A stretch of DNA of 63,997 nucleotides, counting the filler, from Asterionella formosa (lineage: Eukaryota), in the NCBI GenBank assembly GCA_002256025.1. It is 8 parts of 8 records of this genome, joined end to end, with 100 filler letters (N's around TTAATTAATTAA, not from the genome) between each part and the next. Parts side by side here need not be neighbours in the genome. Positions count along the whole stretch, not along the records: positions 1 to 8,002 come from NKIB01012343.1; positions 8,103 to 16,100 come from NKIB01012344.1; positions 16,201 to 24,193 come from NKIB01012345.1; positions 24,294 to 32,282 come from NKIB01012346.1; positions 32,383 to 40,369 come from NKIB01012348.1; positions 40,470 to 48,444 come from NKIB01012349.1; positions 48,545 to 56,511 come from NKIB01012350.1; positions 56,612 to 63,997 come from NKIB01012460.1. One strand, given 5' to 3'. Every line of letters begins with the position of its first letter. Within the stretch, counting starts at the first letter, position 1. Below are positions 1,187 through 59,776 of this stretch, in pieces. The notes under the pieces are model-generated. The model did no database searches, was not told the DNA's origin, and saw only the letters and a program-made list of their open reading frames with translations. The translations under genes were made by a program, and so were the position numbers.

Positions 1187-3418
1187 ATGTCAAGGAACAA
1201 TCAGAACAACAAGAATGGCGATGGCGGATTGAAGAAGGATGAACCCAATGACAAGCAATACCTTGACATTAGAGGTCCCGATGAGGAGAACCCCCCAACT
1301 TTGTCGACTCCCCAAGAAGGAACTCATGGTGGCGGAGAAGGATCTTCTTTCCTAGCAAGGAAGCGCCTTATAGCTGGGAGAAGCCCTACTGCATCAAAGC
1401 AAATGAACAAGACACTTGCTATGGGTTCTCATGGTGGAGAAGAGTCGCCGTTCCTCACAGAGAACCTTCATTCTCCTGACAGCATTTCCTCAGTCGTCTC
1501 ATCAACAACTCAGGAAATAATGGCACTTCCATCACAACAAATGAGTATTGGAGCTTTCGCAGTTGGAAGGGGTGATCCCGTTTTTCATGACCACACCACT
1601 GTCGCTCCTAATAACGAAAACCAGGGTGAACATGGCAATCAGGAAATTGCAACAATGCTCAATGCCATTCTAGTGGATGATTCTGCATTTGCAAATGCTT
1701 CTATTGTTGACTGTGAAGCAGAAGAAAAAGCAAAGCGTCGACTTCAAGTGCGAACAGCCTTGGTGTTATTTTTTGTGATTGGCATATTAGTTGCCATTAT
1801 TGCTATTCCGATTCAGATCACAAAACCAGAACCATCATTTTCTGTTCCAACATCACCAGGAGTAACTATTATTTCATCATTGGCTCCATCAGAATACCCG
1901 TCAGCAGCCCCTTCTTCAAGTTTGTTCAGTTTTTTGGCTGCACACTCGTTTGATAATGGAACAGCACTTTCAACTACTGGCTCCTCACAGCAGAGGGCAA
2001 TGACATTGGTGGAACAATCATCAGTATATAGCAGTACCACAGACTATTTTGTGTTGCAATTCTATGCCTTGGCAGTGCTCAATTATGCAACTGGTGATAC
2101 TCTTTATCCCAAATCACGGTTTCAAAATAATGAAACCGTTTCTCAATACAATTTTTGTAATTGGAACCCTAACATCATAATTTGCAACAGTGAGACAGAA
2201 ATTACAGATTTGAGCCCTTCTTTTCTTGAACTTGTTGGATCCCTTCATTCTGAAATAGGACTTTTGACAACTCTCACTCTACTTTCCTTGAATGTCAATT
2301 ATTTCACTGGTACACTTCCCTCAGAGATTGGACTCTTAACAAGTCTCAAACATCTCGATTTGTCCACCAACACATTCACTGGCTCACTTCCCTCAGAGAT
2401 TGGACTCTTGACAAGTCTCCAATATCTAGATTTTTCCTCCAATATGTTCAACAGCACAATTCCCACCGAGATTGGACTCTTGACAAGTCTCACTGATCTG
2501 TCCGTATTCCTCAGTACATTCCCTGGCTCACTTCCCTCAGAGATTGGACTCTTAACAAGTCTCAAACATCTCGATTTGTCCACCAACACATTCACTGGCT
2601 CACTTCCCTCAGAGATTGGACTCTTAACAAGCCTCCAACATCTAAATTTTTCCTCCAATATGTTCAACAGCACAATTCCCACCGAAATTGGAATCTTGAC
2701 AAGTGTTGAACTTCTAGATTTTAACCTGAATACTTTTACTGGCACACTTCCCACAGAGATTGGACTCTTGACAAGTCTCACTGATCTTTATTTGTATGAC
2801 AATACTTTCAATGGCACATTTCCCACAGAGATTGGACTCTTGACAAGTCTCACTCATCTAGATTTGATCTCCAATAATCTCTCTGGCACACTTCCCATGG
2901 AGATTGGATTGTTGACAAGTCTAAATGTTCTAGGTTTGAGTGAAAACATTTGGAATGGCACACTTCCCACAGAGATTGGACACTTGACAAGAATCACTGT
3001 TCTATATTTATCCTCCAGTACTTTCACTGGCACACTTCCAACAGAGATTGGACTCTTGACAAGTCTCAATTATCTATATTTGTACTCCAATACATTCACT
3101 GGCACACTACCCACAGAGATTGGACTCTTGACAAGGCTTGCTGATCTGTTCATGTTCCTCAATACATTCACTGGCTCACTTCCTTCAGAGATTGGACTCT
3201 TGACAAGTCTCACTGATCTTTCTTTGTTCTCCAATTCTTTCACTGGCACACTTCCCACAGAGATTGGACTCCTGACAAGTCTCTTTAATCTAGATTTGTC
3301 ATCCAATATATTCACAGGTACAGTGCCAGCAACAATATGGCCTGGACTTAATGCAACTCTCTTTGCACTAAGATTGAGCAACAATGTATTCAATGGATCA
3401 GTCCCTCAAGATTTCTAA
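1187..3418 (+). CDS. Type II transmembrane leucine-rich-repeat receptor-like protein (plant-specific 24-aa LRRs), intronless, 743 aa
   Basis: Likely start is ATG 1187 (MSRNNQNN; its 5' context resembles the paralog starting at 6321). Disordered N-tail with GAFAV motif, one TM helix (TALVLFFVIGILVAIIAIPI), Ser/Pro stalk, LRR N-cap (QFYALAVLNY...CNW...C), then about 17 repeats of LxxLxxLxLxxNxFTGTLPTEIG. No kinase domain. Confidence 0.9.
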   Translation: MSRNNQNNKNGDGGLKKDEPNDKQYLDIRGPDEENPPTLSTPQEGTHGGGEGSSFLARKRLIAGRSPTASKQMNKTLAMGSHGGEESPFLTENLHSPDSISSVVSSTTQEIMALPSQQMSIGAFAVGRGDPVFHDHTTVAPNNENQGEHGNQEIATMLNAILVDDSAFANASIVDCEAEEKAKRRLQVRTALVLFFVIGILVAIIAIPIQITKPEPSFSVPTSPGVTIISSLAPSEYPSAAPSSSLFSFLAAHSFDNGTALSTTGSSQQRAMTLVEQSSVYSSTTDYFVLQFYALAVLNYATGDTLYPKSRFQNNETVSQYNFCNWNPNIIICNSETEITDLSPSFLELVGSLHSEIGLLTTLTLLSLNVNYFTGTLPSEIGLLTSLKHLDLSTNTFTGSLPSEIGLLTSLQYLDFSSNMFNSTIPTEIGLLTSLTDLSVFLSTFPGSLPSEIGLLTSLKHLDLSTNTFTGSLPSEIGLLTSLQHLNFSSNMFNSTIPTEIGILTSVELLDFNLNTFTGTLPTEIGLLTSLTDLYLYDNTFNGTFPTEIGLLTSLTHLDLISNNLSGTLPMEIGLLTSLNVLGLSENIWNGTLPTEIGHLTRITVLYLSSSTFTGTLPTEIGLLTSLNYLYLYSNTFTGTLPTEIGLLTRLADLFMFLNTFTGSLPSEIGLLTSLTDLSLFSNSFTGTLPTEIGLLTSLFNLDLSSNIFTGTVPATIWPGLNATLFALRLSNNVFNGSVPQDF

Positions 3419-3490
3419 TCACTTATGACATTATAGTGGCCCATATGTGTTATGGACAGAATATGGTTAGGGAAAAGGGAAGACGCATAG

Positions 3491-4413
3491 ACCAGGAGGT
3501 ACGGAAAACTCCGTACTTCCTTGCTATGTGGAAAATTCCTTTTGTGTATTGTGCACAGACCTTTTTTTCAAATATCTTGCAAAATTCTAGTTGTGTGTTC
3601 TTCTGCGAAGTTCGCGTTCTATTATGAAGTTCACGTACTTCTTGAAAAGTACGTGTGACTACCATTTCGTCAAATCGAGTTTGAGCTCTGATCAGGCATT
3701 AAACATCCACAGGCAATAACATTGCTCATCACACAGTATACTGGTGTCAGGTACCGATACCTGGTATGGAGTACTGGTATTCTGTTTCTAATCATTCAAC
3801 CCTCTACCTGTAGTTACCCTGGTACCAGGCACCAATTGTACCAGATACCATTAGGGTACATATTGGCACCTTGATGTAACTTCACGTGCCAGTATGTGGA
3901 TGATAATATACTGGTAGTTTCAGAACTGAATGTATCCCCTACTACCTGGTATGTACTGAGTTCTGAGTACGCTCAATTTTGTTTAGATAGAAAACCATAG
4001 ATCCTATATAGCATGGAAATAAGTTCAAGGAATAAAAAAACCGGTAATACACATTACTGGTACAAATTATTTTTGATATTCGTTGTCACACCATGCTCAA
4101 TGCATCGTTCTTGGTTTCAAAAAAGCAGTCATTATCCATTTGACCAGTGGATGATAATGACAAATATGTAACACACTGATGGAGATCAAACAAAAAGACT
4201 GCAAAAGAACGCGAAGTTCACAAAAGTTTGCAAAAGACCGCAAAAGAACAGAAAACCCAGATATACGACGTTTTTCTGCAGTCTTTTGCAAACTTTGCAA
4301 ACTTCGCGTTCTTTTGCAGTCCTTTGGGAAAACGTGATGCGAGGTCGATTTTAGATAAAACACTGATTTTTATGTGACTTTTTGTACTTCGGAGTTTCCG
4401 TCAACTCCCAGGT
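3491..4413. mobile_element. Degenerate non-autonomous DNA transposon (MITE-like) with imperfect TIRs and an internal palindrome
   Basis: Left end ACCAGGAGGTACGGAAAACTCCGTAC resembles the reverse complement of the right end GTACTTCGGAGTTTCCGTCAACTCCCAGGT. A T(T)CGCGTTCT subrepeat occurs at both sides. A related end ACCTGGGAGTTCCGGGAAAGTCCG is at ~41168. Confidence 0.45.
4191..4326. repeat. Long imperfect inverted repeat (about 57-bp arms, about 20-nt loop)
   Basis: Arm 4191-4249 (CAAAAAGACTGCAAAAGAACGCGAAGTT...) is the near reverse complement of arm 4270-4326 (...AACTTCGCGTTCTTTTGCAGTCCTTTG). Confidence 0.85.
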
Positions 4414-5805
4414 GGAGTACCACCAGCATTTTTCCAATAAATGTACATGTTGTACTGATACCTGTGTACCAGTACACTGGATATGGATAAATAATTTCTC
4501 AAAATGTCCTCATCAGTCATGCAAAGTTTTCATACAAGATGATCCATTCTGTATTCTGCACAAGTTTATATTTCGCTATTAAATATTTACAATGATATTT
4601 ATTGACAGCTGTAGACTATACATGTGACTAACAATATTTTTTAATCATATACACAAAAGCCCTTTCAACACCATATTTTATTGCTCATATAGTGCAAATA
4701 TCAGGAAGGGCATATGTACAAACATATATTATGATGGACAAAAGTTCCGACATCAGGGAGATGATTTCATGTAGAACTTACTCAATGACATCAGGTTGTA
4801 GAGAAATTATTTCGATTACTAACTATGATGGACAAGAGTCAAGAATTACAAACACGAGCGACATCATGTTAAAGTATTACCTTTTGTATAGATCTATATT
4901 GTTAGACAAAGAAGACTATAGATAGAGACGTTCGTTTCTCTTTCTGTTTCTATATTCTTATTGTGAGTTTACTAATCTAGTTTAGGTTGTTCTGTTTGAA
5001 CAAAACAAACGAACTATTCTCCAAATGCTGTTTGCATTTCTAGGAACATACAATCATAGATAGACCCATGTCTATCTCACACTTACTGATCATAGGTTTT
5101 TAACCATGATCATTCATTTCAAACTATCGGTCTTCCGAAATAGCTTATATTGTCCGGCTCATTATAGTCGGAGTAACAAGGTATAATGTGTGGTTGATGA
5201 GAGCTTGGTACATCAAAGTTGACTCATTCGAATCGGTTGACTCGTTTGACTCCGAGTCCTAACTACGTAGATGAGCTCACTTTAACAACATCATACAACA
5301 TGCACGCAAGTGAATGTTATTTTTACATATGCCTACAGGTATACCGGTATAAAAGCCCTTTCATCACTCCCTCTATCGGTAGTCCAATCGTATACATACC
5401 ATCATCATCATGTATCATATGTAGCTATATGCACTACATATTGGTACCGATTTATGTGGGTGGACAAGGTACCAGGTACAAGGTACAGGTTCATGAGGAT
5501 CGACAAAATTTCCGGCATCATCTATTATCATGCATGAGGAAAGATTTGCGTAGAATTCTACGACAAGTGGTAGAAACCCTATTTTGGCAGCACGAGAAAA
5601 GGAGTTTTAACACCAAAAACACTTTTCACTCGAACAAGAAAAAGTCAACACAATAGACAACTTCCATTCCCTCCACTACATGATACCAAATCGAAAATGA
5701 TAAGAACGACCCTTTTGGAGAAAGTTATAGTGATCACGTTTTTACTATTTACATAGCAAAATACTATGGCCCATATTTCGATTCATGACGTAAGTTTGCA
5801 ATTTA

Positions 5806-6321
5806 TTAGGCTTTTTCAGCTGCTTCATGATCAAAAATGGAGGCACTTGGAATCTCAGAATCGTCCACAAGAACAGCTTTGAATAGTGATTCAGGTTCCA
5901 CCTGCTCAAGTTCATCCTGAACGTTGTTACCGGTAGTGTTAGTGGGAGCAGTGTCGACATGCAAGAAGGAGTCATCCTGTGGAATGTCTCCTGGTCCTCT
6001 GACTGCAAAAGCGCCAGGAACGTGTTGTTGTGATGGTGCTGCCACAACATCTCGAGGCAGAGCTGCTGCTGTTGATGATAAGACTGCTGGAACAACAATA
6101 TTAGATGAATCGTTGCCATCTTGAGGAGGCACGACAACTGCGGCTTTCTTCTGTTGGTCTTCCACTTTCACCAACGACATATCTTGAGGGAGCATTGCTC
6201 CTGCCAAATCCTCCGATGCAGTTGCTTCCATCTCTTCCTCCTTTGCTTCTTCTGCAAACCGATGAGCATTGAGGCTAGCACCATGATCATTCTTCTTGTT
6301 ATTGTTGTTGCTTGATGACAT
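5806..6321 (-). pseudogene. Truncated paralog of the TM-LRR family retaining only the cytosolic N-tail
   Basis: MSSSNNNNKKND...FAEEAKEEE...PGAFAVRGPG...FKAVLVDDSEIPSASIFDHEAAEKA aligns with the N-tail of 1187-3418 and stops (TAA TAA) just before the position of the TM helix. Confidence 0.75.
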
Positions 6322-8002
6322 GCTGGTCTTGTTGTGAACGATATCAAAAAGACGACGAGCGACGAGAAAACAAAAAAAGGTTTCCACAGTAAATTCTGGT
6401 CCCAAGGTAAAACGTCGCTCTCGAATGTGTGGAAAGAATCCCATTCGTAACACCGCTCTTCCAAAAGGTCAAGGCGGCATTCGAGCTCACCACTGTGCCC
6501 AAGAGGATGAGCTTTAGGCTCACTGGTGCTTTGATTGATAGCTAGAAGCCTCTCTTCTGGCTCGTTATCGAAGAAAGTACACAAGTGAGGAAATGCATGG
6601 TGAGTGTAGTTGTCCTGTCCTGTCCTGACGTTATTTTTCTTGTAAGCAAAGGAGCGGATAGAATAATACTCTGCAATCAGCTGAGCCGAATTTGACATCA
6701 TGGTTGATTTCAAGCAATCATGAGGGAGCAAGCAAAATATTCAGAAATTAGGTCAACGATGTTTCTTGTTAGAAAGGGTGCTGGGACAAGGATTTCCTCG
6801 TCTGCATCATGGTGGAAGAGAGGGTCGTAAATTTGAGGAGAATTGTCAAAAGCAGTCGTCTTGGCTGGGCAGCTGAAATCCAACAATCAACCGAAATTCC
6901 CATTTTCTAGAGGGACAAGCACAAACTCTTGTCAATGAAGATGTGTAGTACTAGATAAACTAGCTAGCTAGTTTCTATATATATAGTTTTTTAACTATTC
7001 TCCTGCTATGTAGCAGGACAGCAGCTGTTTCTAGACTAGCAAAAAAATTGTACTAATTAGCTAGCTACAAACATATTGAGACCAGGCAAGCAAGGTTTTC
7101 CGTACATGATGAATTTCGAAGAACTGAAAAGGAAGCAAGTCTTACTCTCTGACTTTGTCTTTACAGTACCTGGTAGACTAATACCATTTTGTAAGGGCCG
7201 GTAGGGTGAATGGGAAAACAAATCTCAATCATTTCCTGCATTTCCTACATTTTGCTTATTGCCCTTCTTACAATTATTACGGTACATACATATCAGTTCT
7301 TGTTTTCCAATAAATGTACCTCCTGTGCATTAAAAATGATACTGGTGTATTCAGGACACTGTAAAGATGTTGACATACATGTCGCTCGTAATTTCTCAAA
7401 ATGTCTTTATGATCTCATTCATCATGAAACAACGTAACAGATGCATGCATGATCGCGGCGGAATGATGGTGTGAGGCAGAAACATGCTACCCATGTGTTA
7501 ATGTATCGTGATACATCATTATGTAACCCTTCCTGCCTATCACAGATGTAAAAATGATACCATTATGCATTTATGTGAAGATATTAGCAATCATACTGGC
7601 TGAACCCCCAATATGGAGCGACTTTTAATGTCCATGTGGAGTTATTCTTTTATTATTATATCCGTGGAGATATCCGGTACTCCCAGATATCTGGTACATT
7701 GAACTACTGGCAAACCTAAGATGTATACTTTCACCTTACCGTAAAACCTGGTGTCTCGTACCCCTCAATGTACACAGCCACGACTGATTTTACTTAGAGG
7801 GGAGTACAAGACATTGGAACTTTTTTGATTGTCAAACTTTTATGAAAAAACCAACTTCACCACCGTTTTCTCCATAGTCTAAAACATAAATAGCAACATT
7901 AAAAGATATATTGTTTTAGGTTCAATCGGCTTCTAGGATCAATTGAATTTCTATTTTTGGAGCACTGGCGCGCCCGAATTTCGTCATGACTTCAACAGAA
8001 AT

Positions 8003-8102
8003 NNNNNNNNNNNNNNNNNNNNNNNNNNNNNNNNNNNNNNNNNNNNTTAATTAATTAANNNNNNNNNNNNNNNNNNNNNNNNNNNNNNNNNNNNNNNNNN
8101 NN
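8003..8102. other. Artificial 100-bp contig linker N44-TTAATTAATTAA-N44 (also at 16101, 24194, 32283, 40370, 48445, 56512)
   Basis: Identical linker with stop codons in all frames; flanking contig lengths decrease monotonically. Confidence 0.97.
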
Positions 8103-9475
8103 GGAAGCAGACGAGGATTCATGATACCTTTAGGATGATTGATGTGTATATGTATATGCATGATACCGACATCTTTTTTGGTAAGAGCAAGCCATTTCGG
8201 GTATGAGCAAGCAAGTCTTGAAATATTCCGGGAAATTCTTTATAGTCATTCATGTCTGAACATCTTTTTATATAATGCACTGTTATTTATAACTGTAAAA
8301 AATTTGTGTTTGTGTTGACCAAATTTGGTAATCCTGGTAAGCACCCCCTAGAGGACCAAATCAATTATTGGTAGGTGTGTGTATGTCTAATATACATAAA
8401 CCCAAAATGAAGTGAAAACAATCTAGTAGTAGTATGAAATCATGCATCAGTGTAATAATAGCCTAAATACATACTAGCTGTGTATGACCACCAGCATGAT
8501 GATCAGCAGATATCAATTGATTGGCAATCTAATCTGTGGCATTGCTCTATCTGGAATATATACCTCATACATTTTGTCAATTTGCAATGTGGCAGTGAAA
8601 AGAACACAGCTCAAAGTAGGGCAGTCATCATATCCCACACACAACGCTATGCCAACCAACAAAACTCCACCATTCTTACTATATCCTGCTCAACCCTTCT
8701 TGTAAAATTTTCAGCAACCTTACAAACCTAATTCCAACTTTTTGCATTCCTACCACAGAACAAATAGTTTTTGGTGTAACAGAAAGACTACAATACTGAC
8801 AGAATTGCTTCCTCCCTCCTACCTCTTTGACACATTTCCTGCATCATTTCTGTTGGTTCATCAACTTGTTAATTGTTGAAAACTTCTTCAAACACCACAT
8901 TTGAGGCATTTCTGGACTCTCAATCATCATTCTGCAAACTTGTCACTCCTGCTACCACCAATAACTAGTAATCAGGGGGAGTCAAAACTCCTTCAAGACA
9001 AGAGTCGACTGGCTGATGTCATCCACCTTAGTTTCAAAACTAGGCTTGTTTCTTCACATGAAGATCATACATATTGCTAGACAAGATCTGGATCCTGATC
9101 ATGTCTTTATTAGAAAAGAACTTGTCAACAACCATTGATTGGGCACCGAATGGTCATATCACCATGATGCATATAGACATGATCCTCAAAGCATTGTCTG
9201 CATGTGAAATGATCTTTGCACATGGAAACAGAAGTAGAACCTTTTGCCACACCCAAGATATAGTACAGCACTTTCATTCACATTCATCATTCCATTTATC
9301 CCACTGTATGCTTGTTTGGGATGTGTTAGACTAACTAGCTCACAATAATTATAAAGGTACAATCTGATCAACTTCACTTGTTCACAATAGTTATCTTTTA
9401 TAATTGTTGCATTGCCTATATCAGCTTTGCATTGCAATTCCCACAAAGTGGAGTCTTGGCACACAAGACACATTG

Positions 9476-11271
9476 TTATGTTCTATCATTCAGGTCATGA
9501 TTTTCAAAGGCAATTCTCATTTGTGACGATTCAGATCCCCCATTATGATTAATCTTTGGCCTCTTCGAGCGATTTATCATTTGTGGCGATTCACATCCCC
9601 CATTATGATCTGTTGGCCTTACAAGTTGACCCAATTTTTTGACCAATTTAATAGTTGTTGGTCTCTTTGTGCGATTGTTCTGAATGCAATGAATGGCTAA
9701 TGTACAAACCGAGGCCAGAATTCCATCTTCCCATTCCTTTGCTAGAGGATCAGCATCCTTTACCAATTTTGGAATTGCCTCCTTTACTACCTCTGCTGGA
9801 GCTTTTTCATCATCATCACTTGGTAAGTAGTGTTCAGAGAACTGTCCCAACTTTGTCACATCATTTTGGAGGCAGCCTGTCACAAGCTCAATCATGACAA
9901 TGCCAAATGAGTAAACATCACCTGATGCTTCAAATTCTTTACCCGTAGAATGAAATGGACATGTGTAGCCAGGTGTCCCATATGTTCCATCACCTGCTGT
10001 GTAACAAAATGAAGGAATTGGGTTGGTTTTTACTGAGCTACCCTTAGGCACAAACTTGGCTAAGCCACAATCAATAAGCTTGGCAGTATAGTTCTGATCA
10101 AGGCAGATATTAGCTGACTTGATGTCACGATGAAACAGAGTGTGGCCATCCTGTTTTATAGTATGAAGGAAGTCGATGGCAGAAATAATTTCGTTCATGA
10201 TTCGAAGTCGGATCTTACTTGTAAGACTTGATCTTTTTTGTTCACTCTTATAGAATCTATCAAGTGACCCCTTGGATAATAGCTCATACACCAGGTATTG
10301 ATCAGATACCACGTGTTGATCAGATGAAACAGGGGACAAATGATAGCCATACAAAGTTACAATATGAGGGTGTCGGAACCGCTTTAATACCTGAAACAGT
10401 ATGATGGAAGAATCAGAAACATAATAGACTTGAAACAACCTGCAATAGATGATACTACAGATGATCTTACCTCCAATTCTTTTTTAAAACTCTTACTAAT
10501 TCCTTTTTTCTGATCTTCCAAAAAACCTAAATTGAAACGAAGACATTTCACAGCAAAATACCGGTTATCATCCACACCTTCATAGACAGCACCAAAAGAA
10601 CCATGACCAAGTTTTTTCTCTTCAGCAAAATGGTTTGTACAATAAGTAATGAATTCCTTAGGAAGCTCGATTGGTCTTGAATCCACATTGTCCATAGCCA
10701 ACTTCATTTTCGATCGACCTTCAGAAATGAAATCAGTTGTGTTGGCTGCTGTTTGGTTGCGGTTCTTGTTTGCATCAACCCGTATTTGAATTTCATATAG
10801 TAAACCTTTACCAATATCATTATCTTCGAGTTCAAGTTCAGTCAAGACAGTATTGACCTTGAGAGCCTCTGCAATGGCCTTGGCTCCGTCATCACCAATT
10901 GAATTACGATAGAGATAAAGTGTAGTCAAGACACTATTGACCTTGAGAGCTTCTGCAAAGGCCTTGGCTCCGTCATTACCAATTGAATTATTAGAGAGAT
11001 TAAGTGAAGTCAAGACAGTATTGTCCTTGAGAGCTTCTGCAATGGCCTTGGCTCCGTCAACACCAATTGAATTAATAAGGAGATCAAGTGTAGTCAAGAC
11101 AGTATTGACCTTGAGAGCCTCTGCAATGGCCCTGGCTCCGTCAGCACCAATTGAATTATATGGGAGATCAAGTGTAGTCAAGACAGTATTGTCCTTGAGA
11201 GCCTCTGCAATGGCCTTGGCTCCGTCATCACCAATTGAATTATTATAGAGATCAAGTGTAGTCAAGACAGT
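9476..11271 (-). CDS. RI-type (NLRC3-like, 28-aa) LRR fused to a Pelle/IRAK-like protein kinase; 5'-truncated; exons 11271-10471 and 10390-9476
   Basis: About 5.5 repeats of TTLDLxxNSIGDDGAKAIAEALKVNTVL, then T..FAEEKKLGHGSFGAVY, FAVK, FKKELE. An 80-nt GTAAG...TTTCAG intron (10470-10391) joins in frame to VLKRFRHPHIV, LVYE, HRDIKSANI, DCG, GTPGY, DVYSFG, C..RP. No ATG or splice acceptor upstream; the repeat breaks into a pogo relic. Confidence 0.85.
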
Positions 11272-11272
11272 A

Positions 11273-12447
11273 CATTTACAAATGGATTTCAATTGCCAAG
11301 TCCGCAACCCCAGAAGGTATAATGAAAATTGTTCTATTGAGGAAGCAATATTTGTTTGTCATGCATACTAGTAAAACCAGGAGACAAGATTTGATCAAAT
11401 CAAAACATTTGAAAAAGTATTTGTTAATAGTGCAACAACTGGAAAGAAGTGGAAGCCAGAAGCAACTTGTATTCCAAAATACAAATAATTTTCTCCACAA
11501 TTGGCAGCTTTGTCAAAAGCAAAGAAAAACAACTATGCATTATGGAACATTGGATCCGCTAATTGATGCATTCCACATGCTACAAAGGGACCTGCTCTAG
11601 GGTCCACCCTTGGACATCCAATCAAATATCTTGATCTTGTCACCAACATGACCTACTCTAGATTTGAGCGTCGTCATGCTGCTTCATTTGAAGTAGCTAG
11701 TTATTGTTTCACTGTGACATCGGTTTGGTCAACAGAACTACTCTGAAGATTTTCATAAGTTATTAAAAGATCCTGGAAGTATTCGTACCTGGACTAGAAG
11801 AGTTATTTCAAGGGCTCAGTTTTCGGAGCATGTAAACATAATTTCACAAAAGGTTCCTGTTAAATGGTGGGCTGATATTGCCCAGAGTCAGTCATTACCA
11901 TTGAGCTCCAAGTGGATAATGTTTTCAACATGGATGAGACTTTCATTCTTGTCTACCCTGGTAAAGACAAGGTACTTTTACTAAAAGATCCTTGGTTCCA
12001 GTTGAAAATGACAAAAAGGGAGTCACACTGGCAGTCATAGCTAGTCATCTTCCTTCACAACTTCTCCCATTATTCATCATTGATACTGGATCATTTGGAG
12101 CAGATCTGATGACCTCTTGGTGCAACAACTACACAAAGTCAACAGTTATTTTCAACAAATCAAATTCATGACTCAATATGCTTTTATTATATATCTTGAC
12201 TGGCTATTGAAAAATTTTCAAATGTCAAAGGTCTATGCTTATTGTAGATCGATCCAAAATTCATTTTGGAACATTCTTGTCTCCAGGTATTCCTGTCTCC
12301 AGGTACCCTGGTAAAGACAAGGTACTTTTACTAAAAGGAACAAAACAAGTAGGCTCCTTGGTTCCAGTTGAAAATGACAAAAAGGGAGTCACACTGGCAG
12401 TCACAGCTAGTCTTCTTTCTTCACAACTTCTCCCACCATTCATCATT
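11273..12447 (+). mobile_element. Degenerate pogo/Tigger-like DDE_1 transposase (with a short internal re-duplication at ~12300-12447)
   Basis: Frameshifted VDNVFNMDETF...PG...GTKQVGS...DKKGVTLAVTAS...LLPPFII...MTQYAFIIYLDWL, typical of the pogo DDE_1 catalytic region. Confidence 0.75.
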
Positions 12448-13805
12448 TCATAACAAAACCACACAATTTGGTAATGATGGTTTCCCAATACTGATGATTC
12501 ACCTATAACTTCATCAATATTCAATCAACCCACTATGTTAAACGTCTCAATTCAATGGCCCATAGTATTGAATAACTTACTATCAAGGAATCATTCATAC
12601 AACAAAGACCATTCTCCAGATAAAGTCACTATATCATTTCGTAACAAAACCACACAATTTGGTAATGATGGTTTCCCAATACTGATTCACCTATAACTTC
12701 ATCAATATTCAATGAATACATCATGTCGAACCGTTCTTTTTTCTGGCACAAAGTATAGAATAAGATACTATCAATATATCATTCATACAACAAGGACCAT
12801 TCTCCAGATGATATCACTATATCATTGTATAGCAAAACCACACAATTTGGTAATGATGGTTTCCCAATACTGATTCACCTATAACTTCATCAATATTCAC
12901 TCAACACATCACGTTGAACGTCTCAGTTCCTTGGCTTATAGTATAGAATAAGGTACTATCAATATATCATTCATACAACCAGGACCATTCTCCAGATAAG
13001 GTCACTATACGATTTCATAACAAGACCACACCATTTGGCAATATGGTTTTCCAATACTGCTTCAGCACCTATAACTTCATCAATATTCAATGAATACATC
13101 ATGTTGGAAGTCTCAATTCCCAGGCGCGTAGTATAGAAAAAGATTTATTTAACAATATGTCATTCATACAACAAGGACCATTCTCCAGATGAGTTCACTA
13201 TGTCATTTCATAACAAAACCACAATATTTGGTAATGATGGTTTCCCGATAATGATTTCACCTATAACTACATCAATATTTACTCTAAACATCATATTGAA
13301 CGTCTCAGTTCATTTGAAAATAAGTTTAGAATAAGGTATTATCAATGTATCATTTATACAACAAGGAACATTTTCCAGATGAGGTCGCTACATCATTTCG
13401 TAACAAAACCACACAATTTGGTAATGATGGTTTCCCAATACTGATTCACCTATGACTTCTTCAATATTCAGTCAACACATCATGTTGTACGTCTCAATTC
13501 ATTGGCGCATAGTTTAAAATAAGGTACTACTATCAATATATCATTCATACAACCAGGACCATTCTCCAGATAATGTCATTATATCATTTCATAACAAAAC
13601 CACACCATTTGGTAATGATGGTTTCCCAATACTGACGATTCACCTATAACTCCATCAACATTCAACAAACAAATCATAATGAACCTTTCTTTTTTACTGG
13701 CACAATATTCCAGCAACGCATTATGTTGATCGTCTCAATTCACTGGCTGGCACATAGTATAGAGTAAGGTACTATCAATTTATTATTTATGCAAAAAGTA
13801 CCATC
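12443..13805. repeat. Tandem satellite, about 7 diverged units of about 190 bp
   Basis: A CAAAACCACACAATTTGGTAATGATGG-type anchor (with point variants) recurs at 12454, 12645, 12833, 13021, 13214, 13404 and 13595 (spacing 188-193 bp). Confidence 0.92.
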
Positions 13806-14594
13806 TTCATGATTAGTTGTGTCGGCATACAATTCTATATCAATGCTGCACACCTAATCCTTGCTACTGACTCTTCTATATCTGTATCAATATGCATCCA
13901 ATGTATGATGATGTGGAATGATTCAATTTACTGGAAGATTTTTTACAATAAGTTACTATCACTATGCAAGTCACTGGAAGATAGTATACAATAAGTTACT
14001 ATCAATAGCTATATCATTCAGCATGCAATTAGCACAATATTCTATTGCTTTCAGCATGCAATTAGCACAATATTCTATTGCTTTGATGATGTCACCACAC
14101 CATTTTATATCAAAGCAACACAATTTTGCTAATGATTGTGTCCCACTACTAATTTTCATATAACTTTGTTTATCAAGAATATACCACAAATAGTAGCCAC
14201 TTGAGGTTGAAATTAATGTATACCAAATCTTCCTTGATTTCGTACTTTTTATAACCATGGGAAGGTTCTTGGGATGCTCTCACTCATTATCATGGCTGGC
14301 TCACTCATTAACTACATTGCATTACTCTTAGTTGTCACCACTGTCAAATATTTTACATGGTTTCATGTATGTATAACATGTGTACCAGTATTTATACTAA
14401 ATTTTTATATGGATGGTGTCTTTTGCTATTTATTTTGGTGTTCGATGACGTCATGAAACCTATCCCTATCCCCAAATTTGGGCGGGTTAGGGTTATGGTT
14501 TCACAATATCTCCACGACAGGTTTTATAACATCACTAAGCGTGCTCCACAAAACCCGAAAAGTACGTGGAGATATTAAGAGGTTTACGGTATTG

Positions 14595-15205
14595 TCACCT
14601 CATACTCAGGCTACAACACGTTCTTGTACAGACAAGATGACGACATTGGTATCGTCTATTGGTGATGGAGGGGACGCAATAACACTCTGTGGGAAGTGTG
14701 CTATTGAAAGTATTGCCGGACAAATAAAGATAAGTGAGACTTGTCAAGAGTCCAAAGTACTCTGTGGGAAGTATACCAGTGAGACTTGTCAAGAGTTCAG
14801 AACCCGTAGGTGACGGTGCTGCAACCAATGATGATTTAGATTTTGTGAGCTGAATGGGAGTTGCGATGATGGTTACTGACAAGCCAATTACCAAAAATAG
14901 CACCAAGGCAGTCCGCACTTGACGTTTACATTGAGCCCTTGCTTTTGCTTTAATGTCAACAACAGAGGCACTGGCAAGTTCTGGATCAACCACTAGCTCA
15001 GCATTGAATAGTGTTGCACGTTCTAGCTGGCCATGTTCACTCCTAATCTCGTTGGTGTCAAAATCAAAATCAACATTACCATTCACAAAGGAATAGTTCT
15101 GTGAAGATGTCCATAATCCCTGAAACGCACCAGGACCAGGAAATGAATCAACTCCGAGATTCAAACATTCTGTTTCTGTCTTCTTTCGACGAAAAGCTCT
15201 TAGCA
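14595..15205 (-). pseudogene. Internally deleted, 5'-truncated TM-LRR paralog
   Basis: PGAF...LFNAELVVD...RQVRTALVLFLVIGLSVTIIATPIQLTK matches the juxtamembrane and TM region of 1187-3418. The stalk then jumps directly to about 1.5 LRRs (GLLTSLTYLYLSGNTFNSTLPTE) and a Cys-rich tail. The 5' end abuts the second pogo copy. Confidence 0.8.
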
Positions 15206-16100
15206 TTTGTTAATAGTGCAACAACTGGAAAGAAGTAGAAGCCAGAAGCAACTTGTATTCCAAAATACAAATTAAATACAAATAATTTTCTCCACAATTG
15301 GCAGCTTCGTCACAAGCAAAGAAAAACAACTATGCCTTATGGTACATTGGATCCGCTAATTGACGCATTCCACAAGCTACAAAGGGACCTGCTCTAGGGT
15401 CCACCCTTGGACATCCAATCAAATATCTTGTCCAGCAGATTCATGTCACCAAAATGACATATTCTAGATTTGAGTGTGGTGATGCTGCTTCATTTGAAGT
15501 AGCTAGTAATTGTTTCACTGCAACATCGGTTTGGTCAACAGAACTACTCTGAAGATTTTCAGAAGTTATTGAAAGATCCTGGAAGTATTCGAACATGAAC
15601 TAGAAGAGTTATTTCAAGGGCTCAGTTTTCGGAGCATGTAAATATAATTTCACAAAAGGTTCCTGTTAAATGGTGGGCTGATATTTCCCGGAGTCAGTCA
15701 TTACCATTGAGCTCCAAGTGGATAATGTTTTCAACATGGATGAGACTTTCATTCTTGTCTACCCTGGTAAAGACAAGGTACTTTTACTAAAAGATCCTTG
15801 GTTCCAGTTGAAAATGACAAAAAGGGAGTCACACTGGCAGTCATAGCTAGTCATCTTCCTTCACAACTTCTCCCATTATTCATCATTGATACTGGATCAT
15901 TTGGAGCAGATCTGATGACCTCTTGGTGCAACAACTACACAAAGTCAACAGTTATTTTCAACAAATCAAATTCATGACTCAATATGCTTTTATTATATAT
16001 CTTGACTGGCTATTGAAAAATTTTCAAATGTCAAAGGTCTATGCTTATTGTAGATCGATCCAAAATTCATTTTGGAACAATTATTACAGATTGGCTAGAA
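15206..16100 (+). mobile_element. Second copy of the degenerate pogo-like transposase fragment
   Basis: Near-identical to 11420-12273 (offset about 3.8 kb), including shared disabling lesions. Confidence 0.85.
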
Positions 16101-16529: not shown

Positions 16530-16598
<69 letters not shown>

Positions 16599-16985: not shown

Positions 16986-17789
16986 CCTCTTGTTGCTCTG
17001 CACCATCGTGTTCTTCGACTGTGTTTGGAACTATGTTCGATTGTTGTTGTAGTTCCTCTACCTCCATTTCGTCATGACTTACTCTGTGAACCTTGTTCTT
17101 TTCCTACAGACAATCAAACTGTTTTTGGCAGTGCAGGGTTGAACCTTGGGAAGAATGAAATGTGTCATGCTCTGTGTCAGGCAGGCTATCAATCATTTGT
17201 TTTTCGCATTGTCGAAATGATTCCTCTGGTGCAAAGGGGACAATAATATACATGGTAAGCAAGCTCAATGTTTTCTTGCCTTTTGTTGCTTGATACTGTT
17301 TGCTGTTGCTTGTTGTGGGCGGATCTCCTCTCCTATTTTCCTTCGTCTTTGTTCGGAATTGTTAGCGCATGAATTGCTATTTGTAATGAATTATAAAAAG
17401 GGCTTGATTGTGTGCTTGTTACTTGCTTGTTGATCACGAACTTACTCTGCAAACGCTGTTCTTTGTCTACAGACAATCAATCTGTTGAGCAAGAGATTTG
17501 TTGGGAATCAGGCTGCGGCATAGTAGCTAAGCACAACGAAAATGATGCCTTTGTATTGATTGTTTGTTCATGAACTCACTCTGCGATTGTTGTTCACTGA
17601 TCGCAGACAATCATATGATCAGGGGTGGGTTGGCCATTGGGGAACATGGTAAGGAGCACAGCAGAACCGAAATCATGGCTTCGTAACTTTTTTTTCTCAT
17701 CAACTCACTCTGCAAATGTTTCCCTCTTTCTTCAAAAGACAATCAATCCGAGCAATGAGAATGAGCCGCTGCTATGACTTGATCTACCG

Positions 17790-20700: not shown

Positions 20701-21056
20701 AATTATGCGGACCACTTCACCAAAGCTTTACCATTTGCTACTCTCAGTGCTCACTGCATGACCATGATGGGATATTCTTTCCTTGATGCTGGTCATCGGG
20801 CTCTTGCTCATCCATTTTCTTCCGTCCTCTGACAACTATTGCTTTCATTTTCTTTCTCTTTCATTTTCTTCTTCCAGAGATGGGGGGATATTATAAATCG
20901 CAAGTCTGTCCTTCTGATCTATCTTTTATCTGACGCATGAAGTATTCTGTACTCGTGTGACTCATTATTCTAGTCAAGTTAAACTACACTAATCACTCTT
21001 TTAACATACCCACTTCCAAACTCTTTTTGAGCTTGTCAGGTTTGTTAATCGACTCA
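17790..21056 (+). mobile_element. Ty1/copia (CoDi-type) LTR retrotransposon relic: protease, PDZ-like region, RT, RNase H, PPT and 3' LTR; integrase apparently deleted
   Basis: IHVDTGANG protease motif (~17870). RT motifs KVRLCVNGS.Q..GVDY.ESFAP, LDISNAFQ, ATDD. RNase H motifs GFADANF, TEAEL, EDNSAA, NYADHFTKAL (ORF 18928-20832). Polypurine tract GAGATGGGGGG at 20877-20887, then LTR ~20889-21056 ending CA. Confidence 0.92.
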
Positions 21057-24676: not shown

Positions 24677-25724
24677 ATGGTATCAGCCAGTACTATCGTT
24701 TTGGAATGGATTTGCCCGGCACTTGGCGTGGTCATGGCGAACATTATGTTTTTAGGTGAGACGTGCGAGTCAGCCACAAGTCGAGGGTGAGGCAAAGGAA
24801 TCTCACGTGTTTGAACCAGCAGCATTGCTCACACATTCACACACAGCCCCTGTAAAGGCCCTCCGACAAGCCGTTTCCAGGGGACAATTGGGAGATTTGA
24901 ATCCAACTCCCTGGGCCTTCATGCTGGGGAATTGTTTGGGATGGATCGCTTATAGTTTCCTCTTGCAAAATCTTTTTATATTCTTTGCAAATGCACCGGG
25001 ATTTCTGCTGGCGGTGTGGTTCAACCTATGTGCCGCAAAACTTCAGTATCAAACGCACAGAGCCACCGAGATGCGACGCTCTCTCGTTCAACTCGTAGAA
25101 GAGGAACAATCCAAAGAGTTTACACGCAGTGGGACTCTATCCGACAAAAACGAAGGTACGTCGCCCGACGCTACAATGGTGTTGGGAGAATTTGCCAAGA
25201 CCGTTCTGCAAGTCACTACCCAAGAAATGACGGCACCTGCTCCGCATGAAAATTTGGTGGTGGCTATTGTTGTGATTTGGACTGCGACTCTGTCTATCCT
25301 AGGATTTGCTAGCACCTTGGACGAACGCACGAAGGAACTTATCGTGGGGTTTCTCGTGAATGTCAACGTCATGTTCTTCTATGGAGCACCTCTTTCCAAG
25401 ATATTCACGGTTCTCAAGACGAAATCATCCTCGTCCATTCATATTCCGACCATGGTTACCAACACATTGAACGCTGTCTTTTGGACCGCCTATGGGTCGG
25501 CTGTCGCTGATCCCTTTTTGTATGTGCCGAACGGCATGGGCGCTTTATTTGGTGGTTGTCAAATCTTGCTCTTGGTACTCTTTCCGAGAAAGAAAATGGC
25601 AGATCTGAAAGAGGCAAAGATTGACGAGGGGGTCAAAAGCATTGATGTGGAAAGTACAGGAAGTCAAGTCGAGACTGCCGACACTGGGGTCGGGACTACA
25701 AAGCAAGTTGAGCCGCAAGAATGA
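24677..25724 (+). CDS. SWEET: SWEET/MtN3-family sugar transporter, 318 aa; exons 24677-24755 and 24847-25724
   Basis: Exon 1 MVSASTIVLEWICPALGVVMANIMFL, then a 91-nt GTGAG...ACAG intron, gives MFLAPVKAL...LNPTPW...NCLGWIAY...NAPG. Second MtN3 repeat: FYGAPLSKI..V.KTKSS.SI.......N...W..YG....D.F..VPNG.G. Confidence 0.93.
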
Positions 25725-25920
25725 AAGCTTGATAAACCGGCCTCGTTCAAAGAATTTTGCTGTGTAAAGAGTTTTCTGTATCACGATAGGGATATTTTAC
25801 TTTTACTTTAAACAACACGAGCTGGCACCAGGCACTGACTTTACACTCTTCCAGACTGTCGTGTTGAGAGCTGGAGATCTATTCTATAATTTCAAATGGA
25901 AGGGGAAGGATGGGGCATGG

Positions 25921-48794: not shown

Positions 48795-50151
48795 GCGGGA
48801 TACAGTCGACCTTCAAATTGAAGGATGATTGAGTCGAGAAACCGGAAATTACCTGGGAGCCCAGGTAATGCAGAAAATAGTCGGCGGAGTTGAGTGTTGG
48901 GCCATGACTTCAGAGCAGTATGTCAAGGCGGCCATTGCCAATGTAGAGTTCAAACTCGACGAGTTGGGTCAGCGGCTTCCGACAAGGTGCACTACCCCAT
49001 TGCAGGGAAATATAGACAGGAACTGGATACCTCTGCCGAACTCATGATTGAAGGCGTGAGATACTACCAGGAATTGATCGGCGTGCTCCGCTGGGCATTG
49101 GAGCTTGGACAAATAGACATTGCTATGGAAGTTTCTATGTTATCCACTCACCTAGCGTTGCCGATAAGCGGACACTTACAGCAGGTATATCACATGTTTG
49201 GATATTTGAAATCCAAACCCAAGAGGACGTTGATCTTTGATCTGACACACCCCTATATAGACGAATCCATGTTTGTTAAATGCTATTGGCATAACTTTTA
49301 CAGGGGAGTGCAGGAGTCTATTCCAGGGGACGCACCCAAGCCCAGAGGTAATGTTGTAACTATTCACTGTTTTGTGGATGCGGATCAGGCGGGGAATTGG
49401 GTGACGAGGCGCTCGCAGACCGGGATACTGATTTTTGTGAATCAGGCTCCAGAAGATCTCGGTCGAACTGACCGAGGCATTGAGGTATAAGCTGAGAATG
49501 TTTGGAATCCCAATCGATCGACCGACTAACGTTTTCAGCGACAACGAGGCGGTGACGAAGAACACGATTTATCCAGAAAAAGAAACATAATGCGATAGCG
49601 TATCACAGAGCGAGAGAAGCTGTGGCGGCAGGGATGATTCGGGTAACGAAGGAAGATGGAAAGACTAATTTGGCTGTTGTGCTGACGAAGCCATTACCCC
49701 AAATTACACGACAGTATTTGAGCGACAAGTTCATGTATTGATGGCTGTTGGATCACAGTGGGTCAAAGATTGAAGCCAAGGTTCATCACGATGTCATAAC
49801 CTATGACACCGTTTACCTCCTGGGCACGCAATGACGTGTGGCACCAAATCCAGGTCGATGTTTAGTTGTATATTTGTTTGGTTTCACCTCCCATGAATTC
49901 AAGGGGACTGAGCAAATATTGCAGTGCAGTGTGGGCGCGTGGGTGCGTGTACCGTGTCATACGGTACAGTGTACTAACTAGCCGTTAGAGTGCTTTAGCA
50001 ATAGTACAGCGTATGTATATAAATCTTTAAGATTATGTTTTAACCTTTATCTTTCTTTCCTTCTGCACCATGTAAGTTGTTCTGCTGACCACGCTAGTGT
50101 ATTTATTCGGGGGACATCATCAGGACAAGCCGTGGAGAACCATGTTTAACA
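48795..50151 (+). mobile_element. Copia relic: RT C-terminus, RNase H, PPT and 3' LTR (49909-50151)
   Basis: YLGA...YVKAAIANVE...YQELIGVLRWALELG.IDI..EVS.LS...FVDADQAG..VTRRSQTG...LRYKLRMFGIP...SDNEAV...HNAIAYHRAREAVAAG. PPT CAAGGGGAC, then TGAGC...TTAACA. Confidence 0.92.
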
Positions 50152-57543: not shown

Positions 57544-59776
57544 CTAACCAGCACAAGATTTACTATTTTCACAGAAACTGCCACAGTTGCAAATCAGTAG
57601 TGGACAAGCATAAATGCCCTGTATTGGTGCAATATTACATGCTTCTGTTGGAACTGCCCCTGTGAAATAATTTTTTCCAAAAGATAATATGGCTATCAAA
57701 AAAGTGAAATATCAGAACAAATGGTCAAGAAATGTAAGTTTCATATTAAAAAAACTTACTCAATGAAGACATGAGACCAATTTCTGTGGGAATTTCATCA
57801 GTAAACATATTGGAATGAATCTGAAAATTATTGACTTTTGTCAAATTGCCAATCTCTGTCGGAAGTGCACCAGTCAACTGATTATCATATAGATACAATT
57901 TCGTTAGATTTGTCAAGTATCCAATCTCTGTTGGAAGTGTCCCATTTAACTGGTTGTTGTCGGCTCCAAATTCTATGAGGCTCGTCCAATTTCCTATTTC
58001 TGTTGGAAGTGCACCAGTCAACTGATTATCATATAAATACAATAATGTTAGATTTGTCAAGAATCCAATCTCTGAAGGAAGTGTTCCATTGAAATGGTTT
58101 GTGCTTGCATCAAATGTTGCAACATTTTTCAAATTGCCAATTTCTTTCGGAAATGCACCAGTCAACTGGTTTACCCAAAGAACTAATACTGTTAGACCTG
58201 TCAAGTATCCAATCTCTGTAGGAACTGTGCCAGAGAGACGGTTGGAATTTGCTCTAAAATCAATGAGATTTGTCAAATTGCCAATCTCTGGAGGAATGGT
58301 ACCAGTGAATGAATTGTTGAAGATATATAATTTCATTAAACTTGTAAAGAATCCAATTTCTGTTGGAATTGTTCCCTTCAAAAAATTTATTTGTAAAGAC
58401 AAAAATTCAACAAGGTTAGTCAATTTGCCAAGTTCTGTTGGAAGTGTTCCAGTCAACTTGTTACCATACAATGACAATGCTGTGATGTTGGTCAACTGTC
58501 CAAGCTCCATTGGAATTGGTCCAGCAAGCTTGTTATTGCTTACAAACAACCCTGTAACACTTGTCAGTCGACCCATTTCACTTGGTAGTGATCCACTTAG
58601 AATATTATTTGACAAGTGCAACATTTCTTTGTTGTAAAATTATATTACTCATTTCATTAGTGAGCGATTCTCAATAATAATTTGATTTTTTCTTGCTGTG
58701 ATTGTATACTTACCTAAGTTTGATAAAAGACCAACTTCCAGGGGAATGGACCCCATTAAGGTATTGTTGTACAAATCTATCGAAATGACCTGGCTACTAT
58801 CCATATTGCAAGTCAATCCAAACCAATTGCAATAATTGTTGGTGCTAAATAGCCACAATGAACGGTTGAGCCACTGGTCTCCAGAAGTTGCATAATAAAG
58901 AGTCACCAAGGCATAGATTTGGAGCAACGTATCATTATACATGATATCTGCAGTACCTGGCTCACTTTCCAACCAGAGCATTGCCTGCTGTTGTGGCGTG
59001 CCATTAGTCAAAAGTGCAGCCCCATTATCAAACGAGTTATTTGACAAAAACAAAAAAAATGGTGTAGAGAGAATTACAAATGTGGGAGCCAACTTTTGAT
59101 TGTCCGGAACATAAGATGTTGGAACCAATGTTGGATTATTCGGTTTGCTGTTCTGAGTAAGCACAACTGCAAGTACAACAGCTACGATGGCAACAAGACT
59201 TGTGAAACCGCAAGATACCATGATGTTGATCATGCTACGGTGACGTTGGGCCTTTGCTTCAGCCTCAGTGTTGATGGCCGTCACAGTGTCAATCAAAATA
59301 GTGGCAGACATAAAGGTTTCAAATTCATCAACAGGAGTGGCATTCACTGTCTCCTGTTGGCCTCCCTCTATGGCATGAATGGCAAGTGGTTGTTGACTGA
59401 TTCCATGGGACTCCTCTTCATTCCATTCATTGTTTGTAGCTTCAGTACTAGGACTTGCACGATCTCTCGCTCCCACCGCAACTGCTCCAGGAATTGTTTG
59501 TGGAGGTGCTGGTTCTTCATGCTCCACCGCCACCTTGGAAGAATCCTGGTACGAAAAATTAGACCCTCGCCCGGCCTTGTGGTCAACATGTTCCTTCTCA
59601 TCAAACACTTGTCCATGTGAAGAGTCAGAGTCCCGTGCTCGTTCTTCCTCCTTTGCTTCGTCAGCAAAAGGCAAGGTGGAATCAATACTCTTCTTTTTTG
59701 CAGGCAGAGAAGGTTTCACTGCACTTACGTGATCACCTGGGCTGCCTTTCTTGATATTCTTTTTATCGTTGTTCAT
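57544..59776 (-). CDS. Type II transmembrane LRR receptor-like protein, 692 aa; exons 59776-58714, 58626-57760 and 57692-57544
   Basis: N-tail with FADEAKEEE and PGAVAV, TM helix (LVAIVAVVLAVVL), N-cap YALVTLYYATSG..W....W......C.WFG..C, about 13 LRRs. Two GTAAGT...AG introns (87 and 67 nt, both phase 1) restore the frame and add the Cys-rich end ACNIAPIQGIYACPLLICNCGSFCENSKSCAG*. Confidence 0.9.

What the first reader, a model, noticed from the sequence alone, without database searches (positions are those of the whole stretch)
1187..59776. Expanded type II TM-LRR receptor family with conserved short motifs in a disordered cytosolic tail
Four members on three unlinked contigs (1187, 6321, 15205, 59776) share an inverted topology: no signal peptide, N-tail inside, LRRs outside. 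Their otherwise divergent tails keep (P)GA(F/V)AV (PGAFQ in the 15205 copy), xAxLV(D/V)D (NATPVDE in the 59776 copy), a juxtamembrane EA.(E/A)KA and, in two members, FA(E/D)EAKEEE. With no catalytic domain, these motifs are candidate docking sites for adaptors or kinases. One broken member lies 3.3 kb from the LRR-IRAK kinase on the same contig. Inference: a receptor plus cytosolic-kinase recognition system analogous to plant RLP/RLCK or Toll/Pelle signalling, but with reversed topology.
Basis: partly seen in the sequence, partly recalled or inferred. Interest (0 to 1): 0.72.

Follow-up and report, generated by a model that had tools for sequence, protein, structure and literature searches.

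The report
Diatom type II LRR surface proteins
A large diatom family of membrane proteins shows variable leucine-rich repeats outside the cell and keeps two old, undescribed short motifs in a floppy inner tail; its tie to the neighbouring kinase family is gene shuffling rather than a shown signalling partnership.

Summary
The family and motifs are real; the member list is overstated. Only 1187 and 59776 are whole type II TM-LRR genes; 6321 is a tail-only stump, 15205 a truncated chimera. Family matches lie on 146 contigs (lower bound). PGAxx[VIM] and Ax[LP]V are old: 38 and 39 of 49 in-genome representatives, 37 and 39 of 60 distant relatives (shuffles 0.5-3.6), with a clear case in Pseudictyota and looser ones in Seminavis. 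EA.(E/A)KA and FA.EAK are mostly local (3 of 60 outside). Topology is supported by charge bias, absent signal peptides and ectodomain cysteines, and is already published for diatom MRM2 with the RLP analogy. LRR binding-face codons diversify (pN 0.47, pS 0.33). The kinase link is genetic: 15205 belongs to a young 14-copy subfamily joining an LRR_6-kinase gene's start to the tail from its PGA codons, often followed by LRR_6/ARM cassettes; RNA pieces cover these joints. Without chimeras, DCG kinases lie no nearer the family than other kinases (p=0.38). Best reading: recognition proteins whose tail motifs dock an unknown general cytosolic adaptor. New variant of a known kind.

The parts
1187..3418 (+). 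Whole type II TM-LRR gene, 743 aa, one open frame: 190-aa tail, TM (about 1757-1813), S/T/P stalk, helical Cys cap, about 16 plant-type LRRs; ends GSVPQDF-stop like several paralogues
1547..1564 (+). Motif 1 (IGAFAV)
1661..1732 (+). Motif 2 (NAILVDD), following ASIV, and juxtamembrane EAEEKA (start of the helix that runs into the TM)
5806..6321 (-). Tail-only stump of a family member (FAEEAKEEE 6258, PGAFAV 6018, KAVLVDD 5880, EAAEKA then stop); no TM, no LRR
9476..11358 (-). LRR_6 plus RLK/Pelle/IRAK-like kinase (DCG in place of DFG), intron 10470-10391; no in-frame ATG ahead of the LRR_6 repeats
11416..12081 (-). Dispersed repeat upstream of the kinase (45 matches in the genome)
14595..15206 (-). 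Truncated chimeric copy: kinase-gene-type start MLRAFRRKKTETE, short linker, tail from PGAF (15134), NAELVVD (15005), TM (about 14909-14853), no cap, about 1.5 LRR
15202..15887 (-). Second copy of the same dispersed repeat (93% identical), abutting the ATG of the chimeric copy in place of its own 5' UTR
57544..59776 (-). Whole type II TM-LRR gene, 692 aa after removing two GT-AG introns (58713-58627, 57759-57693; inferred, no reads laid): 186-aa tail, TM (about 59218-59162), Cys cap, plant-type LRRs, C-terminal Cys cap
59251..59668 (-). Tail motifs of the 59776 gene: FADEAKEEE 59668, PGAVAV 59491, NATPVDE 59344, EAEAKA 59266

Best explanation
These are single-pass type II surface proteins of diatoms, the same build as the MRM2/MRP2 'transmembrane LRR' proteins. 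The TM acts as a signal anchor (inferred from sequence); a mucin-like stalk and a Cys cap lift a plant-type LRR solenoid outside, whose concave face varies and binds outside ligands or cells (variation shown, ligand inferred). The tail is unfolded and carries two old short motifs, PGAxx[VIM] about 60-100 residues and Ax[LP]V about 30-45 residues before the TM, often followed by a third A-x-x-hydrophobic stretch and a juxtamembrane helix (shown). I infer that they are docking sites for a general diatom cytosolic adaptor, most likely one that sorts, clusters or internalises the protein, with any signal passed on by a separate co-receptor or adaptor, not by the DCG kinases directly. The link to the kinases is at DNA level: one young subfamily arose by recombination between a TM-LRR gene and the shuffled LRR_6/ARM/kinase gene pool (shown).
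For: Topology: more K/R on the N side of the TM in 46 of 49 in-genome representatives and 55 of 60 distant relatives; 1 of 60 has a hydrophobic N-terminus; Cys 2.1% after the TM against 0.5% before. Tail unfolded, EAEE.A opens a helix running into the TM, cap helical with pLDDT about 90. Motifs: 38 and 39 of 49 in the genome, 37 and 39 of 60 outside, shuffle means 0.45-3.6; genome-wide DNA patterns 53 against 28 and 93 against 15 for the reversed pattern; 6 of 19 hits found through the cap alone still have PGA in place; motif-bearing rows lie on both sides of a cap-only tree, median cap identity 31%, minimum 17%; named carriers Pseudictyota dubia and, more loosely, Seminavis robusta. One type II protein with a non-LRR Cys-rich ectodomain has PGAVAM and two A-x-x-V stretches (L214), hinting at a general tail module. 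LRR face: pN 0.47 against pS 0.33 at five face codons, 60 repeats of 10 genes. Chimera: three-part DNA mosaic, 14 copies, same start as kinase genes.
Against: No partner identified, so adaptor and sorting role are inference. 11 of 49 in-genome representatives and 23 of 60 relatives lack motif 1 in the window scored, so it is dispensable. The relatives were found with a profile that contained the motifs (bias; only the 19 cap-only hits are free of it). N-glycosylation sequons are not enriched after the TM in the 60 relatives (209 of 1873 Asn against 189 of 974 before). The non-LRR case is single and does not align to the tail profile (E 0.056). Topology is predicted by simple rules, not by a dedicated predictor or experiment. 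pN/pS is uncorrected and from within-gene repeat pairs.
Confidence: 0.5

Rival explanations
1. One reading: the tail motifs dock the DCG-type IRAK/Pelle-like cytosolic kinases, giving an inverted RLP/RLCK or Toll/Pelle pathway.
For: Both families are expanded here (55 kinase matches); the kinase is closest to FERONIA, RIPK, BRI1 and IRAK among solved structures; none of 30 kinase loci shows a tail-TM fused ahead of the kinase; both are covered by poly-A RNA contigs (for the kinase and chimeras); 7 of 51 kinase contigs hold a family member against 0 of 177 retrotransposon contigs.
Against: 3 of those 7 are chimera contigs; against 105 contigs with other kinases the excess is not significant (same contig p=0.13; within 10 kb p=0.064; without chimeras p=0.38). 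The kinases carry their own LRR_6/ARM repeat arrays, as stand-alone sensors would. The motifs are old and shared across diatom groups, while the kinases here are 59-91% alike in the kinase domain (a young radiation); whether motif-bearing species lack such kinases was not tested.
Confidence: 0.12
2. The motifs are self-association (beta-zipper) segments that cluster the receptors when the ectodomains are brought together.
For: The motifs are short, Gly/Ala/Val-rich, beta-prone stretches in an unfolded tail; some tails repeat them (P0011, P0042, L074).
Against: The single-chain model shows no strand in the tail; no oligomer model was run.
Confidence: 0.15
3. The proteins are adhesion or mate-recognition molecules with no signalling output; the tail only anchors them to the cortex or cytoskeleton.
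For: Diatom TM-LRR proteins MRP2/MRM2 are proposed pheromone receptors or adhesion molecules (PMC6261938, passages); long stalks and LRR arrays fit adhesion.
Against: Rapid birth and death, many broken copies and face diversification suit non-self recognition better than a fixed adhesin; window tails are about 190 aa, MRM2 tails about 50 aa.
Confidence: 0.18
4. The motifs are leftovers shared by recent duplicates or low-complexity coincidence.
For: True for FA.EAK and EA.(E/A)KA, seen in only 3 of 60 relatives each.
Against: Motifs 1 and 2 persist at 17-31% cap identity and in other diatom genera.
Confidence: 0.05

Closest known systems
Diatom MRM2 / MRP2 transmembrane LRR proteins (Russo et al. 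2018, PMC6261938, passages read; bioRxiv 10.1101/2024.04.15.589526, section 20 read)
   Same: One TM, plant-type LRR outside, N-terminal intracellular part without kinase; the authors draw the RLP/co-receptor analogy.
   Different: MRM2 is an 11-gene conserved family with a tail of about 50 aa; here tails are about 190 aa or longer, the family is expanded and turning over, and conserved tail motifs are not mentioned in the passages read. The preprint also words the TM as 'on the C terminus', so its topology statement is not fully consistent. Orthology not tested.
Plant LRR receptor-like proteins (Cf-9, TMM, RXEG1 type; features recalled)
   Same: 24-residue plant-type LRRs, Cys-pair N-cap, no catalytic domain.
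   Different: RLPs are type I with a signal peptide and a short C-terminal tail; here the tail is N-terminal and long, and the cap has extra helices (only weak fold matches, E above 2.9).
Toll/Pelle and TLR/IRAK signalling (recalled)
   Same: Extracellular LRR sensor plus an IRAK-like cytosolic kinase in the same genome.
   Different: No TIR or death domain in the tail (no Pfam match; unfolded); no partnership shown.
Shuffled LRR candidate immune receptors of brown algae (ROCO; PMC11378527, abstract and outline read)
   Same: Recombining LRR modules with diversifying selection in a stramenopile.
   Different: Those are LRR-ROC-COR proteins shuffled by exon; here whole cassettes are joined inside exons, and a membrane-anchor module enters the pool.
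Expanded LRR families of Seminavis robusta (PMC7335047, passages read) and LRR 'receptor-like' genes of Pseudo-nitzschia (PMC5485032, passages read)
   Same: Tandemly expanded diatom LRR genes, some under positive selection; two Seminavis proteins are direct relatives.
   Different: Topology and tail motifs are not discussed in the passages read; supplements not opened.

Membership tests
Diatom TM-LRR receptor-like proteins (MRM2-type build) | Single TM with plant-type LRR (NxLxGxIP) on the outer side | tested here: met
   One TM; repeat consensus LPTEIGLLTSLTGLYLYSNTFTGT; Pfam LRR_14/LRR_1; charge and Cys bias. Holds for 1187 and 59776 only.
Diatom TM-LRR receptor-like proteins (MRM2-type build) | N-terminal intracellular part without kinase or known signalling domain | tested here: met
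   No Pfam match in tails; unfolded in the model; no Atlas feature hit.
MRM2 clade proper | Short (about 50 aa) intracellular tail | tested here: not met
   186 and 190 aa.
MRM2 clade proper | Orthology to MRM2 and mating-type-biased expression | not tested
Plant LRR-RLP | Signal peptide and type I topology | tested here: not met
   N-terminal hydropathy -1.58 and 0.03; TM at residues 191 and 187, LRRs after it.
Plant LRR-RLP | Cys-pair LRR N-cap | tested here: inconclusive
   Invariant C-x-W...C; no Pfam hit; Foldseek rows are plant receptor caps but E 2.9-9.5.
Plant LRR-RLP | Works through a co-receptor kinase | not testable with these tools
   Needs interaction data.
Toll/TLR receptor | Cytosolic TIR domain | tested here: not met
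RLK/Pelle/IRAK kinases (the neighbour) | Kinase domain closest to RLK/Pelle/IRAK | tested here: inconclusive
   All 45 solved-structure matches at E up to 1e-20 for paralogue L176 are plant RLK/RLCK-type, IRAK or generically named entries, scores only 78-87 bits; no tree built.

The most novel reading that the evidence does not exclude
The segment from the PGA motif to the TM is a portable membrane-display and docking cassette of diatoms, read by an undescribed cytosolic adaptor, used with LRR and non-LRR ectodomains, and now being grafted onto the diversifying LRR_6/ARM sensor cassettes of the kinase gene pool, so that recombination turns intracellular sensors into surface-anchored ones within one recognition system.
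Probability: 0.2. Interest if true: 0.8.

Novelty: new variant of a known kind. Interest (0 to 1): 0.52.

Why it matters
Diatom TM-LRR proteins include proposed mate-recognition receptors, and how they pass a signal without a kinase is open. Two short motifs kept across distant diatoms give concrete baits and mutation targets for finding the partner. The chimeras show that a surface-protein family and a cytosolic sensor-kinase family exchange modules, which bears on how an alga might diversify recognition proteins. The architecture itself is not new.

Tried and rejected
Complex prediction of a DCG kinase domain (L176, with an in-frame intron left in) and an 84-residue tail: no answer, score 0.00, alignments not used; not evidence either way. 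Co-location: the first test against retrotransposon contigs looked strong (7 of 51 against 0 of 177) but that control is weak, since such contigs are mostly element; against other kinases it faded. Sequon enrichment as a topology test failed in the relatives. Word-indexed protein searches reached little: 2 hits for the 59776 N-terminal part, 18 for the tail profile, only its own sequence for the non-LRR protein L214. Atlas search of the tail gave no hit; the whole 1187 protein gave diatom LRR clusters. Foldseek gave no match at E up to 0.001. Of 18 pattern hits outside known members that were read, 2 were further TM-LRR genes, 1 the non-LRR type II protein, and 15 chance. About 50 further PGA[FY] hits on other contigs were not read, so how widely the tail module serves non-LRR ectodomains stays open. 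RNA was laid only on 8103-16100; for 1187 there is only an unlaid share of 0.42 of sampled words of 900-7000 in run X1. Uncovered stretches in contigs prove nothing. Schulze et al. 2015 (Phaeodactylum LRR survey) could not be read; it is known here only as cited in the MRM2 preprint and by recall. Literature searches for the motifs (five literal strings, 2 listings with unrelated titles) and for the topology found no description of the tail motifs; subscription papers and preprint supplements were out of reach.
Full report
Setting. The window is eight contigs joined by N spacers, from a 68 Mb, 15,436-contig assembly G000. Relatives are diatom proteins.

Check of the members. 1187 is a whole 743-aa gene in one frame; its abrupt end (GSVPQDF-stop) is shared with several paralogues. 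59776 gives 692 aa after two GT-AG introns, with a C-terminal Cys cap (introns inferred). 6321 is only a tail: it stops after EAAEKA and has no TM or LRR; likeness to paralogues ends at 5807. 15205 has tail, TM and about 1.5 LRRs, without cap. So two of four show the claimed build.

Family size. Searches with the two N-terminal parts gave 124 and 129 matches; the union lies on 146 contigs. These are lower bounds and include fragments and near-identical copies.

Topology. K/R are more frequent before the TM in 46 of 49 non-redundant in-genome representatives with a tail of 100 residues or more (9 of the 58 were left out: 8 with shorter tails and one two-TM copy). The same holds in 55 of 60 relatives under 60% identical to any held in-genome frame; 1 of 60 has a hydrophobic N-terminus; Cys is 2.1% after and 0.5% before the TM. 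Sequons do not help: 28% of Asn after the TM in the two window proteins, but 11% after against 19% before in the relatives. A model from a 63-row alignment shows an unfolded tail, one helix from EAEE.A through the TM, an unfolded stalk and a confident helical cap; the cap has only weak matches to plant receptor caps. Type II is thus well supported by prediction, not shown.

Motifs. [PIHL]GAxx[VIM] occurs in 38 of 49 and Ax[LP][VI] in 39 of 49 in-genome tails (shuffle means 0.45 and 3.2), and in 37 and 39 of 60 relatives (0.7 and 3.6). EA.(E/A)KA-like and FA.E.K occur in 24 and 23 of 49 in the genome but 3 and 3 of 60 outside: these two are marks of the local expansion. The relatives came from a profile holding the motifs, and some may be unfetched paralogues or near species; among 19 hits matched through the cap only, 6 still have PGA in place, 4 in strict form. 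On a tree of the cap alone, motif-bearing rows lie on both sides, with median identity 31% and repeated losses. A conserved subfamily keeps RPGAVEMEGRAFG, IEAxPV and IVYAE in relatives about 50% identical. Named carriers: Pseudictyota dubia P0161 (PGAVAV, AHLV) and, loosely, Seminavis robusta P0101 and P0111. Genome-wide codon patterns gave 53 against 28 and 93 against 15 for the reversed control. Reading 18 hits of the first pattern outside known members found 2 more TM-LRR genes and one type II protein with a Cys-rich non-LRR ectodomain and similar motifs (L214); it does not align to the tail profile, so it is a lead.

Ectodomain. In 60 repeats of 10 genes of the expanded clade, the five face positions have 2.3-3.3 bits of entropy, pN 0.47 and pS 0.33; the rest pN 0.09, pS 0.28 (scaffold positions were fixed by the search pattern, values uncorrected, and the 59776 repeats did not fit the pattern). 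This fits a diversifying binding face.

The kinase. It is LRR_6 plus an RLK/Pelle/IRAK-like domain, 55 matches in the genome, joined in other copies to ARM or LRR_6 arrays before or after the kinase. The window copy has no in-frame ATG before its repeats. It and the 15205 copy each follow the same dispersed repeat. 15205 belongs to 14 copies at 84-100% identity that begin MLRAFGWKKETE or MLRAFRRKKTETE, the start of LRR_6-kinase genes such as L159, L163 and L164. In L137, bases 10-243 match kinase-gene 5' ends (70-92%), 275-547 match TM-LRR donors (84-86%) from exactly the PGA codons, and 562 onward match LRR_6 genes (91%). Of the 14, 6 continue into LRR_6, 3 reach ARM repeats in the same frame (one of them also among the 6, one with a broken TM), 4 are cut by contig ends, and none shows the Cys cap. 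No locus among 30 showed tail-TM fused ahead of a kinase.

RNA. In poly-A run X1, contigs cover the kinase frame and 14511-15311 and not 11307-14510; X2 covers nearly everything and may hold DNA. Loose ends at 15176 and 15207 read as the paralogues' start and 5' UTR, so the covered copies are mostly paralogues. One X5 piece spans the kinase-type start and linker (15135-15207); one X1 piece spans linker and PGAF with 30 and 38 letters on the sides, one short of the tool's bar. This is fair, not firm, support that chimeras are transcribed.

Clustering. 7 of 51 DCG-kinase contigs carry a family member, 6 within 10 kb, 3 of them chimeras; 7 of 105 contigs with other kinases do, 4 within 10 kb, and those read are copies of one CDK-like gene beside 59776-type members. 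The excess is not significant (p=0.13, 0.064, and 0.38 without chimeras). The fragmented assembly limits this test.

Mechanism. Shown: build, old motifs, variable face, chimeras. Inferred: outside ligand, docking role of the motifs, a general adaptor for sorting or clustering (0.5). Direct kinase docking 0.12, self-association 0.15, pure adhesion 0.18.

What is known. MRP2 and MRM2 of Pseudo-nitzschia are TM-LRR proteins without kinase, proposed as pheromone receptors or adhesion molecules (PMC6261938, passages). A preprint describes MRM2 homologues with an N-terminal intracellular part of about 50 aa and outer plant-type LRR and likens them to RLPs (10.1101/2024.04.15.589526, passages and section 20). 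LRR expansion is reported for Seminavis (PMC7335047, passages). No IRAK-like kinase was detected in Thalassiosira pseudonana (PMC3019232, passage). I found no description of the tail motifs; Schulze et al. 2015 was not readable and supplements were not seen. Earlier notes of this scan already describe the shuffled LRR/ARM/kinase pool; the entry of the TM-tail module into it was not in the notes shown.

Verdict. Observation partly confirmed; interpretation partly supported; new variant of a known kind; interest 0.52.

Noticed in passing
window 11416-12081 and 15202-15887: A dispersed non-coding repeat (45 matches) lies upstream of LRR_6, ARM and kinase modules and of one unrelated open frame (L113); it may be part of a mobile element or a recombination hot spot that carries gene pieces.
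   Followed up: partly
window 12428-14126: Array of about eight degenerate 188-191 bp units between the kinase and the chimeric copy.
   Followed up: no
L214 (G000:C13281): Type II membrane protein with tail motifs like this family and an ectodomain of Cys-rich repeats without Pfam match.
   Followed up: partly
L080, L081, L084, L086, L088: Old subfamily with very long tails that repeat an 'LVVQYMISxGxDPxxAEQxAxxFEEQQ' unit and keep RPGAVEMEGRAFG in distant relatives.
   Followed up: partly
L074 and L203: Type II LRR proteins whose tails repeat short helical units (LDERIAAK, LEQDALAK) and several PGAV motifs.
   Followed up: no
tails of the 1187 clade, just before motif 2: E-x-x-x-L-F/L (EPATLF, ERATLF, EPESLF) resembles an acidic dileucine sorting signal (definition recalled); absent from the 59776 clade.
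   Followed up: no
L188, L190, L194 and contigs C14198, C14199: Copies of a CDK-like kinase gene lie 0.6-1.8 kb from 59776-type members.
   Followed up: partly
L090, L073: Family-type cap and LRR with a long PT-rich stalk and a C-terminal Cys-rich unit that looks like a chitin-binding (hevein-type) domain (recalled likeness).
   Followed up: no
window 42283-44514 (+): M6-family metallopeptidase gene (Pfam PF05547).
   Followed up: no
window 17783-20832 and 44864-49490: Decayed retrotransposon frames (RVT_2 match at 18904-20832; integrase-like frame at 45824-46735 with 152 matches).
   Followed up: partly
window 24756-28410: SWEET-type sugar transporter (+) next to a WD40 gene (-).
   Followed up: no
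window 62056-63531 (+): 491-aa open frame with no Pfam match.
   Followed up: no
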